A DNA stretch of 64,000 nucleotides. Source: a virus. Taxonomy: Duplodnaviria; Caudoviricetes. The stretch is from positions 7,932-71,931 of the IMG/VR virus record IMGVR_UViG_3300031994_000081; one strand, 5' to 3'. The notes under the pieces are model-generated. The model searched no databases. It was not told where the DNA came from and saw only the letters and a program-made list of their open reading frames with translations. This document shows positions 54,299 to 54,424 of the stretch, piece after piece. Numbering within the stretch: position 1 is the stretch's first letter; each line of letters starts with the position of its first letter. Made by a program: the position numbers and the translations under genes.

Positions 54299-54424
54299 TG
54301 CGGAGAATTGGACTCGAACCAATAACACTGGGAACCCTATTCCTGAAGTAACTCTGAAGTACACCACAATTAGGGAACATTTATCAGAGTACAAAACCAT
54401 GCTCTACCATTGAGCTATCTCCGC
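54299..54424 (-). tRNA. tRNA(AGG; Pro-type anticodon) interrupted by a 54-nt insert in the anticodon stem (54343-54396)
   Basis: GCGGAGA TA GCTC AATGGTA GAGC A TGG[insert]GA ATAGGGT TCCCA GTGTT ATTGG TTCGAGT CCAAT TCTCCGC A gives a 72-nt cloverleaf once the insert is removed. Confidence 0.7.

What the first reader, a model, noticed from the sequence alone, without database searches (positions are those of the whole stretch)
54299..54424. tRNA with an AGG anticodon interrupted in the anticodon stem by a 54-nt copy of the same module
Seen: excising 54343-54396 joins TGG to GA and restores a perfect TGGGA/TCCCA stem with a 7-nt loop ATAGGGT. The insert pairs GTACTCTGA with TCAGAGT(T)AC and contains TGTTCCCT and GTGGTG. 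Allowing for junction ambiguity, both this insert and the Tyr insert can be placed to end in GTTACTTCA, which suggests a common processing site. The same element occupying two different tRNA positions points to mobility or modular grafting (inference). A32 and G1-C72 are atypical for a Pro tRNA, so it may be a mimic.
Basis: partly seen in the sequence, partly recalled or inferred. Interest (0 to 1): 0.8.

Follow-up and report, generated by a model that had tools for sequence, protein, structure and literature searches.

The report
Ro60-docking handle inside a phage tRNA
This 126-base RNA gene of a gut crAss-like phage has the full shape of a tRNA plus an extra 54-base hairpin that is most likely a docking site for the phage's own Ro60 (Rsr) protein rather than an intron; I found no description of this kind of "Y RNA", and it can be tested in the cultured phage crAss001.

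Summary
Window 54424..54299 (- strand) is a tRNA frame, and removing 54343-54396 yields a canonical 72-nt tRNA-Pro(AGG).

The intron reading is not supported. The insert belongs to a conserved RNA module: two covarying helices around an internal loop, followed by a UUACUUCA tail (77 distinct copies, 90.7% paired).

- **Linked to rsr.** The module sits beside the Ro60/Rsr gene, on the same strand, in about 65 phage genomes whose Rsr is as little as 31% identical.
- **Also in bacteria.** It occurs in ordinary Y-RNA topology next to chromosomal rsr in three Bacteroidales genomes.
- **Several layouts.** It is found inside anticodon stems, inside D-loops, clamped around a whole tRNA, and standing alone, including circularly permuted forms.
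- **No fixed splice site.** The would-be junction lies 0-8 nt from the conserved tail, and the insertion point shifts between 28/29 and 31/32.

Best reading (about 0.6): an unspliced tRNA/Y-RNA chimera whose hairpin binds Rsr, related to YrlA but built differently.

Splicing is not excluded (about 0.15). A few jumbo-phage contigs carry such RNAs in tRNA arrays with no rsr found.

The scan has already noted this kind of RNA on other DNA and on the sibling RNA in this window. Phage crAss001 carries unannotated homologues.

The parts
54299..54424 (-). Whole RNA gene: tRNA frame plus inserted module (126 nt)
   Evidence: Rfam tRNA 49.2 bits over the full length. RNAalifold on 27 orthologues recovers the acceptor, D, T and module P1 helices, with covariation in the acceptor, T and P1 helices; the D-stem is invariant.
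54418..54424 (-). Acceptor stem, 5' strand. It pairs with 54300-54306; the discriminator A is at 54299.
   Evidence: All 7 pairs show compensatory changes among the 27 orthologues.
54401..54415 (-). D-arm (GCUC / 7-nt loop with GG / GAGC)
   Evidence: The D-stem is invariant in 27 of 27 orthologues.
54397..54399 (-). First part of the anticodon-stem 5' strand (UGG), upstream of the insert
   Evidence: Together with 54341-54342 it pairs with 54329-54333.
54343..54396 (-).
   Evidence: Covariance model R1 matches 54344-54393 at 57 bits, E=3.8e-11.
54384..54392 (-). Module helix P1, 5' strand (GUACUCUGA)
   Evidence: It pairs with 54348-54357. P1 covaries in 77 distinct copies.
54373..54383 (-). 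Conserved internal-loop strand X (UAAAUGUUCCC)
   Evidence: Conserved block (A)AUGUUCY in alignments A2 and A3.
54367..54373 (-). Helix P2 with its apical loop, reduced here to about one pair
   Evidence: In other copies P2 has 3-8 bp and is 99% paired with compensatory changes. The reduction is shared with L002, L012 and L039.
54362..54366 (-). Conserved internal-loop strand Y (UGGUG; UAGUG in most relatives)
   Evidence: Alignments A2 and A3. The same core occurs in the bacterial Y RNAs.
54348..54357 (-). Module helix P1, 3' strand (with one bulged U)
54344..54351 (-). Conserved tail UUACUUCA, following and partly overlapping P1
   Evidence: UACUU is invariant, and the flanking tail positions nearly so, in the 21 seed copies. 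The tail is present in every topology and in the bacterial copies.
54329..54342 (-). Remainder of the anticodon arm: GA, loop AUAGGGU (anticodon AGG at 54336-54338), UCCCA
54307..54323 (-). T-arm (5-bp stem, UUCGAGU loop)
54560..56011 (-). rsr: the Ro60/TROVE + vWA protein gene directly upstream, presumed partner of the module
   Evidence: Pfam TROVE 6.2e-19. The nearest solved structure is the Thermus phage phiLo Ro60, 9KOP/9L5Y, E=1.2e-14.
54144..54282 (-). Sibling RNA: a tRNA frame with the same module in the D-loop
   Evidence: R1 matches 54204-54257 at 55.9 bits. The full acceptor stem pairs only if the 5' end is at 54282.
57600..57746 (-). Sibling RNA: an intact tRNA-Gln (57637-57709) clamped between the two strands of a permuted module
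57845..58075 (-). Sibling RNA: a permuted module closing an RNA of about 230 nt with no tRNA
   Evidence: Seen directly in the sequence.

Best explanation
The gene encodes a stable, unspliced chimera: a complete tRNA-shaped body with a protein-docking hairpin branching from the 5' strand of its anticodon stem.

**The hairpin.** It consists of helix P1, a conserved internal loop (AUGUUCY opposite UAGUG/UGGUG), helix P2 and a UUACUUCA tail. I take it to be the recognition site for the Ro60-type ring protein Rsr, whose gene lies immediately upstream.

**Proposed mechanism.**
1. The RNA is transcribed with rsr; in the related phage crAss001 the rsr gene is an early gene.
2. Its ends are trimmed like those of a tRNA.
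3. The handle binds Rsr, and the tRNA part tethers Rsr to whatever recognises tRNAs, as Y RNAs tether Ro60 to PNPase in bacteria and in Thermus phage phiLo.

**Shown here.**
- The module is a real, covarying structure.
- It is tightly linked to rsr across distant phages and in bacteria.
- It occurs in several topologies.
- It has no fixed relation to a splice junction.

**Inferred.** Rsr binding, lack of splicing, and the tethering role.
For: **1. The module is a real structure.**
- In 77 distinct copies, 90.7% of cells are paired, against 33-45% when the partner columns are slid.
- 190 cells show a change on both sides; 0 of 500 shuffles reach the observed values (seed alignment).

**2. It is linked to rsr.**
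- 132 model hits fall in 51 of 67 rsr loci. All are on the rsr strand, and all but two (L012, L039, about 2.5 kb on) lie roughly 0.01-0.95 kb after the rsr stop codon.
- In 30 nearly complete genomes of about 100 kb with a hit, the places listed lie only 0.1-7 kb downstream of rsr; I checked these coordinates by hand for six genomes.
- A blind pattern scan of IMG/VR recovered further contigs. In 14 of the 14 that carry both a model hit and an Rsr homologue (31-64% identical), the module lies within 1 kb of rsr on the same strand, on either side of the gene.

**3. Bacteria have it too.**
- Three Bacteroidales chromosomes carry 70-115-nt RNAs beside rsr with the same cores. They have the ordinary Y-RNA topology and compensatory P1 and P2.
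- The phage Rsr is closer to these Rsr proteins (30-32% identity) than to the Rsr of loci that hold canonical YrlA (24-26%).

**4. It occurs in several topologies.** Anticodon stem, D-loop, clamped around a tRNA, and stand-alone, including permuted forms.

**5. The junction varies.**
- Junction offset is 0-8 nt and the insertion point ranges from 28/29 to 31/32.
- The crAss001 subgroup would yield a 9-nt loop or a mismatched stem after excision.
- Nine different anticodons occur among positional orthologues.

**6. Precedent in the literature.** Y RNAs with tRNA-like domains lie next to rsr (PMC4201824), and a phage Ro60 binds phage Y-like RNAs and host PNPase (PMC12135203).
Against: - **No RNA or binding data.** Rsr binding and the absence of splicing are inferred from genomics only.
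- **A tRNA-like anticodon arm is kept.** Most orthologues, including this one, would give a perfect 5-bp stem, a 7-nt loop, U33 and a purine at position 37 after excision. A spliced tRNA would need exactly that; a mere scaffold would not obviously need it.
- **Modules without rsr.** Four jumbo-phage contigs carry handle-bearing tRNAs inside large tRNA arrays, with no TROVE gene found on the contig. The largest is 236 kb and 83% complete.
- **No known Ro60-binding motif.** The module lacks the published bacterial motif GNCGAAN0-1G, and no Rfam Y-RNA or YrlA model matches it.
- **Thermodynamics.** For this single sequence, folding prefers a different structure (-37 against -26 to -30 kcal/mol).
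Confidence: 0.6

Rival explanations
1. A true tRNA intron of a new kind. The hairpin is cut out by an unknown endonuclease or by RNA catalysis, the halves are joined (for example by host RtcB), and a working tRNA-Pro(AGG) results. The excised hairpin might itself serve as the Y RNA.
For: - Virtual excision gives a canonical 72-nt tRNA.
- 30 of 31 orthologues restore at least 4 of 5 stem pairs, across 11 different stem sequences.
- Handle-bearing tRNAs sit in ordinary tRNA arrays of jumbo phages where no rsr was found.
- Rsr and RtcB share operons in bacteria (PMC7790460).
Against: - The junction is not fixed relative to the conserved structure (0-8 nt), and the insertion site shifts.
- The same module occurs outside tRNAs, permuted, around an intact tRNA, and in bacterial Y RNAs, where nothing needs excising.
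- The record encodes no RtcB and no recognisable splicing endonuclease.
- There is no bulge-helix-bulge geometry, and no ribozyme or intron family matches.
- An A34 Pro anticodon is unusual for bacteria (my own knowledge).
- A large subgroup would give a non-canonical anticodon arm after excision.
Confidence: 0.15
2. The module is a structured handle for some factor other than Rsr, such as a nuclease, a modification enzyme or a processing enzyme. Its position next to rsr would then reflect co-regulation rather than direct binding.
For: - Modules occur on contigs with no detectable rsr.
- The module does not match the published Ro60-binding motifs (PMC4201824).
Against: - Adjacency to rsr holds down to 31% Rsr identity, on either side of the gene, and in bacterial chromosomes.
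- The RNA motif type tracks the Rsr subfamily.
- No other gene is seen to accompany the module as consistently.
Confidence: 0.12
3. A decaying tRNA gene hit by a selfish or accidental insertion, with no function of its own.
For: - One relative (L247) has lost rsr and the 5' acceptor strand of the neighbouring RNA, so such loci can decay.
Against: - The acceptor, T, P1 and P2 helices are all kept by compensatory changes across dozens of divergent genomes.
- The D-stem is invariant.
Confidence: 0.03
4. A DNA-level signal (phage promoter) or a known self-cleaving ribozyme.
For: - Short copies of the Y strand plus tail occur in intergenic DNA and directly in front of a tRNA.
Against: - Each such copy has a covarying partner strand elsewhere in the same RNA. 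That is an RNA-structure signature, not a promoter signature.
- No Rfam ribozyme family matches at E<=1.
Confidence: 0.03

Closest known systems
YrlA (Y RNA-like A; Rfam RF02553; Chen et al. 2014, PMC4201824; structure in bioRxiv 10.1101/312249)
   Same: - Encoded beside rsr on the same strand.
- Modular: a presumed Rsr-binding stem plus a tRNA-like domain with conserved D and T arms.
- Also found in phages.
- The handle attaches at the anticodon-stem side of the tRNA shape.
- A UUAC follows the 5' strand of the stem, much as the conserved YUAY does in YrlA (a resemblance, not tested).
   Different: - YrlA is a circularly permuted tRNA: closed acceptor stem, no anticodon loop, no free 3' end, and an Rsr stem made from the RNA's own ends.
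- This RNA has the normal tRNA order, open acceptor ends and a complete anticodon stem-loop, with the handle as an internal hairpin.
- The GNCGAAN0-1G motif is absent.
- The Rfam model gives no hit at E<=1.
Yrl1/Yrl2 of Thermus phage phiLo, with phage Ro60 and host PNPase (PMC12135203)
   Same: - A phage-encoded Ro60 with phage-encoded partner RNAs next to the gene.
- That protein is the nearest solved structure to this Rsr.
   Different: - Those RNAs are plain stem/bulge/stem Y RNAs with a CGAA motif and no tRNA body.
Metazoan Y RNAs and the Ro60-binding bulged helix (Stein et al. 2005, as cited in PMC4201824)
   Same: - A conserved, distorted helix flanked by variable helices serves as the protein site, and the rest of the RNA acts as an effector module.
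   Different: - The sequence motif differs.
- There is no match to Rfam Y_RNA.
- The resemblance of short motifs to human Y RNAs is from memory only and was not tested.
Non-canonical archaeal tRNA introns (bulge-helix-bulge), permuted or split tRNA genes
   Same: - An insert of about 50-65 nt at non-canonical tRNA positions (anticodon stem, D-loop).
- The same element also flanks a whole tRNA.
   Different: - No 3-4-3 bulge-helix-bulge geometry.
- Linkers of variable length.
- No splicing endonuclease gene.
- A bacterial-phage context.

Membership tests
tRNA (Rfam RF00005) | Cloverleaf with a 7-bp acceptor stem, D-arm with GG, T-arm with UUCRA loop | tested here: met
   49.2 bits against a gathering score of 29, model positions 1-71. 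Covariation in the acceptor and T stems.
tRNA (Rfam RF00005) | Continuous 5-bp anticodon stem with a 7-nt loop in the gene or mature RNA | tested here: not met
   The 5' strand of the gene is interrupted by 54 nt. ARAGORN finds nothing unless the insert is removed. Whether the mature RNA is continuous is unknown.
tRNA (Rfam RF00005) | Aminoacylation and decoding | not testable with these tools
   Needs charging assays. The A34 Pro anticodon and G1-C72 are atypical (my own knowledge).
YrlA / bacterial Y RNA | Encoded within a few kb of rsr on the same strand | tested here: met
   135 nt downstream of the rsr stop codon. The same arrangement holds in relatives.
YrlA / bacterial Y RNA | tRNA-like domain with conserved D and T arms | tested here: met
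YrlA / bacterial Y RNA | Rsr-binding stem formed by the RNA's 5' and 3' ends and carrying GNCGAAN0-1G | tested here: not met
   The handle is an internal hairpin and the motif is absent. Bacterial relatives of the module do have the end-to-end stem, but with GUAGUG-type cores.
YrlA / bacterial Y RNA | Permuted tRNA order with a closed acceptor stem and no anticodon loop | tested here: not met
   Normal tRNA order, open acceptor ends and a full anticodon loop.
YrlA / bacterial Y RNA | Match to Rfam RF02553 | tested here: not met
   No hit at E<=1 in 54000-54600.
YrlA / bacterial Y RNA | Physical binding by Rsr | not testable with these tools
   Needs a gel-shift assay or immunoprecipitation.
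Archaeal-type (bulge-helix-bulge) tRNA intron | Two 3-nt bulges separated by a 4-bp helix at the exon-intron borders | tested here: not met
   By inspection, the borders are joined to P1 by single-stranded linkers whose lengths vary widely among orthologues (roughly 3-14 nt on each side).
Group I / group II self-splicing intron | Catalytic core (P3-P9 or domains I-VI), more than 200 nt | tested here: not met
   The insert is only 54 nt, and Rfam gives no match here, although it does find two group I introns elsewhere in the window.
Known small self-cleaving ribozymes (Rfam) | Match to a ribozyme covariance model | tested here: not met
   None at E<=1.

The most novel reading that the evidence does not exclude
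The hairpin really is excised. A conserved, Rsr-recognised structure would mark cut sites in phage tRNAs, the halves would be rejoined by an RtcB-type ligase, and the released hairpin would be the Y RNA. That would be a protein-guided tRNA splicing pathway in bacteria and phages, and a direct functional link between Ro60, Y RNAs and tRNA repair.
Probability: 0.1. Interest if true: 0.9.

Novelty: new variant of a known kind. Interest (0 to 1): 0.62.

Why it matters
What the tRNA-like part of bacterial Y RNAs is for, and what Ro60/Rsr does in phage infection, are open questions.

- **A new architecture.** Here the Ro60 partner RNA is not a tRNA look-alike but a complete tRNA body, with an anticodon loop that changes between related phages, joined to a portable handle.
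- **A new motif class.** The handle is a motif class that I did not find in Rfam or in the papers I could search. Bacteroidales chromosomes and crAss-like phages share it; these phages are among the most abundant viruses of the human gut.
- **A tractable system.** The same RNAs lie unannotated after the early TROVE gene gp96 of the cultured phage crAss001, so the RNP can be pulled down, the handle mutated and splicing checked.
- **A possible disease link.** Gut bacterial Ro60 orthologues have been discussed as triggers of anti-Ro autoimmunity (my own knowledge). A widespread phage Ro60-RNA particle in the gut may bear on that.

Tried and rejected
- **DNA search of cultured phages.** The 600-nt region gave no match in the phage collection. 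The protein search later found crAss001 and its relatives.
- **First IMG/VR pattern scan.** I set the gap wrongly (8-13 nt instead of 4-9), so its 102 hits are about the number expected by chance. They serve only as a rough null.
- **RtcB.** Pfam RtcB is not found in the record.
- **Neighbouring ORFs.** PHROGs, Pfam and NCBIfam on the flanking ORFs gave no RNA-processing enzyme.
- **Single-sequence folding.** MFE folding does not reproduce the comparative structure. I set it aside in favour of the covariation evidence.
- **Bacterial genome scan.** Scanning genome contigs with the Rsr alignment returned mostly phage contigs binned into MAGs, not host genes. Host loci came instead from a TROVE search of Bacteroidales genomes.
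- **Promoter reading.** Rejected, because every copy has a covarying partner strand.
- **Bulge-helix-bulge, group I and known ribozymes.** Rejected (and inspection).
- **Anticodon pairing with the module.** The AGGG of the loop could pair with CCCU in this copy, but L012, whose module has the same core, has a non-complementary anticodon loop, so I treat it as coincidence.

Full report
**1. What is there**

On the - strand the window carries, in order:
- an ORF at 56011..54560 with a TROVE (Ro60) domain (Pfam 6.2e-19) and a weak Ro60-type vWA match;
- a 135-nt spacer;
- the RNA of this finding (54424..54299);
- a 16-nt spacer;
- a second odd tRNA-like RNA (54282..54144).

The protein's nearest solved relative is the Ro60 of Thermus phage phiLo (9KOP/9L5Y, E=1.2e-14).

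The window is part of a 72-kb IMG/VR virus record. Its Rsr is 65-68% identical to the TROVE protein of uncultured phage cr106_1, the PhiCrAssBcn isolates and Bacteroides phage crAss001 (Crassvirales, Steigviridae). The phage is therefore crAss-like.

**2. The observation**

- Rfam's tRNA model covers the 126 nt end to end (49.2 bits) and skips 65 nt in the anticodon arm.
- ARAGORN ignores the intact sequence. Once 54 nt are removed it draws a textbook 72-nt tRNA-Pro(agg), and the two ambiguous junctions give the same product.
- The insert contains the stated stem and motifs. The combined motif occurs twice in the window, against none in shuffles.

**3. The insert is a conserved structured module**

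The Rsr protein retrieved 67 related loci from IMG/VR. A simple scan for tRNA frames longer than 95 nt found one to three such RNAs just after rsr in most of them.

From 21 diverse copies I built an alignment and covariance model R1. The module has these parts:
- helix P1, whose base is conserved as ACUCU/AGAGU and whose upper part varies;
- an internal loop, (A)AUGUUCY on the 5' side and UAGUG or UGGUG on the 3' side;
- helix P2, which is variable and is reduced to about one pair in this copy;
- a single-stranded tail, UUACUUCA.

Pair counts support both helices.
- In the seed, 90.6% of cells are paired, against 31-45% when partner columns are slid; the covariation score is 0.553 against at most 0.106.
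- In 77 distinct sequences found by the model, 90.7% are paired, 190 cells are changed on both sides, and 0 of 500 shuffles reach these values.
- RNAalifold, run independently on 27 full-length RNAs, recovers the acceptor, D, T and P1 helices. Every acceptor pair covaries and the D-stem is invariant.

**4. The module goes with rsr, not with tRNA genes as such**

- *In the 67 loci.* Model R1 gives 132 hits in 51 loci. All are on the rsr strand, and all but two (L012, L039, about 2.5 kb on) lie roughly 0.01-0.95 kb after the rsr stop; none lies in the 3 kb upstream or on the other strand.
- *In whole genomes.* Searched over 31 genomes at least 90% complete, 30 have hits. In the six genomes whose coordinates I compared with rsr by hand, every hit lies 0.1-7 kb downstream of rsr, and the remaining places fall in the same small clusters.
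- *Blind scan.* A pattern scan of all IMG/VR, made without reference to rsr, recovered these contigs plus others. Of 39 further contigs, 17 encode an Rsr homologue of 31-66% identity. In all 14 that have both a model hit and the gene, the hits lie within 1 kb of it on the same strand, sometimes upstream and sometimes downstream.
- *In bacteria.* 6 of 201 sampled Bacteroidales genomes have a TROVE gene. In three of them (loci L282, L283, L284), RNAs of 70-115 nt directly beside rsr carry the same cores: a GUAGUG-like block, a short P1, (A/U)UACUUCG, a body, the P1 partner, a UUGUYGC-like block and the P2 partner. Here the RNA's two ends form P2, the classical Y-RNA layout, and both helices differ between copies by compensatory changes.
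- *Protein and RNA type track each other.* The phage Rsr is 30-32% identical to the Rsr of these loci, but only 24-26% identical to the Rsr of two loci that hold canonical, sub-threshold YrlA matches.
- *Not in Rfam.* None of the new RNAs matches any Rfam family at E<=0.01.

**5. Topologies**

The same two strands occur in several arrangements:
- as a hairpin in the anticodon stem (this RNA);
- as a hairpin in the D-loop (the neighbour);
- as two halves clamping a whole tRNA-Gln (57746..57600), with the tail directly abutting tRNA position +1;
- closing a non-tRNA RNA of about 230 nt (58075..57845);
- as stand-alone and circularly permuted units in relatives.

A unit that works with either helix closed, and with anything from nothing to a full tRNA as cargo, behaves like a protein-binding domain.

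**6. Intron or handle?**

I excised the insert in silico from 31 distinct orthologues (40 loci) and asked for the best 5-bp stem with a 7-nt loop.

*Points for an intron*
- 18 stems are perfect and 12 have 4 of 5 pairs.
- The stems have 11 different sequences, so the split stem is under selection.
- Most loops have U33 and a purine at position 37.

*Points against*
- The insertion point moves: 28/29 in 15 RNAs, 29/30 in 5, 30/31 in 7 and 31/32 in 4.
- The distance from the invariant tail to the junction ranges from 0 to 8 nt.
- The subgroup that includes crAss001 gives a 9-nt loop or a mismatched stem.
- Positional orthologues carry nine different anticodons: UUU, UGA, UUC, UGU, GUG, AGG, GUU, GCU and GAA.
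- The borders have no bulge-helix-bulge geometry.
- The insert is far too small for a group I or II intron.
- No ribozyme family matches.
- The record has no RtcB (the record is 71% complete) and no recognisable RNA-processing enzyme among the 22 ORFs I scanned.

A split stem can equally be maintained as part of a three-way junction in an unspliced RNA.

*What still speaks for real tRNA function*
- The anticodon arm is well kept.
- In four jumbo-phage contigs, handle-bearing tRNAs lie inside arrays of 8-20 tRNA genes with no TROVE gene detected; the largest contig is 236 kb and 83% complete.
- In one of these arrays, the only one I checked, the handle-bearing copy duplicates an ordinary tRNA-Gln present in the same array.

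*Other observations*
- One relative (L247) has lost rsr and also the 5' acceptor strand of the adjacent RNA.
- Thermodynamic folding of this one sequence prefers another structure. I give that little weight, because the excised 72-nt version is not predicted as a cloverleaf either.

**7. Mechanism I commit to (confidence about 0.6)**

The RNA is made with rsr. The crAss001 homologue gp96 is an early gene, switched on within 10 minutes of infection (PMC8375218). The ends are trimmed like those of a tRNA, and the hairpin stays in place. Rsr binds the P1/internal-loop/P2 handle and the tRNA body acts as the effector module.

This extends the established picture. Y RNAs tether Ro60/Rsr to other proteins such as PNPase, and bacterial YrlA uses a tRNA mimic as the effector module (PMC4201824; bioRxiv 10.1101/312249). 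Phage phiLo Ro60 assembles with its own Y-like RNAs and host PNPase (PMC12135203).

Geometrically, the handle leaves the tRNA at the anticodon stem, the place where YrlA's Rsr-binding stem replaces the anticodon arm.

What the tRNA body recruits is unknown. The rapid turnover of anticodon arms among relatives hints at a partner that reads anticodon loops, such as tRNA-targeting nucleases, repair enzymes or modification enzymes; this is speculation.

**8. Known or new**

- *Literature.* I found no description of this motif or of whole-tRNA/Y-RNA chimeras in the papers searched. [quoted passage not shown]
- *Annotation.* The 0.9-kb stretch after gp96, which holds three model hits, is unannotated in MH675552.
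- *Earlier scan notes.* Earlier AI notes of this scan report the same general phenomenon, handle-tagged tRNA mimics beside phage Ro60-like genes. These include handles in anticodon arms in many other genomes, and another agent reached the same reading for the sibling RNA at 54145-54282. Those notes are unverified. My conclusions rest on the tests above.
- *Classification.* A new variant of a known kind: the Ro60/Y-RNA system with tRNA mimicry.

**9. Verdict**

- The intron or common-processing-site reading is not supported, but it is not excluded.
- Modular grafting and the mimic idea are supported.
- The decisive data (RNA size, junction reads, Rsr binding) can be obtained in the crAss001/B. 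intestinalis system, and partly from public RNA-seq.

Noticed in passing
window 54465-54555 (- strand): The spacer between rsr and this RNA folds into a long hairpin: the outer stem pairs CACACCAC with GUGGUGUG. A block CUGAUGUGUAUGCUGAUAC is conserved in L002 and L003, while the outer stem covaries in L003. It may be a further Y-like RNA lacking the standard module.
   Followed up: partly
window 57600-57746 and 57845-58075 (- strand): Two more RNAs use the same module in permuted form. One clamps an intact tRNA-Gln(UUG), which duplicates the ordinary tRNA-Gln at 58521-58594. The other closes a non-tRNA RNA of about 230 nt.
   Followed up: partly
L282 about 2410-2625, L283 about 235-470, L284 about 2385-2455 (all - strand; Bacteroidales chromosomes): Small RNAs next to chromosomal rsr have the same conserved cores in classical Y-RNA topology and match no Rfam family at E<=0.01. 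They look like an undescribed Y-RNA class of Bacteroidales.
   Followed up: partly
L291 4073-4586 (= MH675552 about 96203-96716, - strand): In cultured Bacteroides phage crAss001, the 0.9-kb gap between gp96 (TROVE) and gp95 carries no annotation but holds three module hits, two of them at 65 bits.
   Followed up: partly
L122 1520-1670; L245 2220-2420 and 2680-2820; L202 380-510; L243 1760-1880: Jumbo-phage contigs carry handle-bearing tRNAs inside arrays of 8-20 tRNA genes, and no TROVE gene was detected on the contigs. Either the gene lies in the missing part, or a host Rsr is used, or the handle has another partner.
   Followed up: partly
L247 (IMGVR_UViG_3300045988_004437), about 7000-7400: A 94-kb relative keeps two handle-bearing RNAs but lacks rsr. 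The 5' acceptor strand of the first RNA no longer pairs, which suggests a deletion.
   Followed up: partly
L005 3001-4428: The Rsr reading frame of this relative contains one in-frame stop codon under table 11. This may reflect stop-codon recoding or a sequencing error.
   Followed up: no
window 27847-28064 and 40820-41032 (- strand): Two group I introns are called by Rfam, at 75.9 and 69.8 bits.
   Followed up: no
window 57098-57448 (- strand): A phage-encoded tmRNA (Rfam 70.3 bits; ARAGORN gives a tag peptide) lies between the rsr RNA cluster and the tRNA array. An HNH endonuclease gene lies at 56512-57039.
   Followed up: no
window 54085-54113 (- strand): A GC-rich hairpin followed by a T-rich run lies right after the second tRNA-like RNA. 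It looks like the terminator of the rsr-RNA unit, although the consensus scan did not list it.
   Followed up: no
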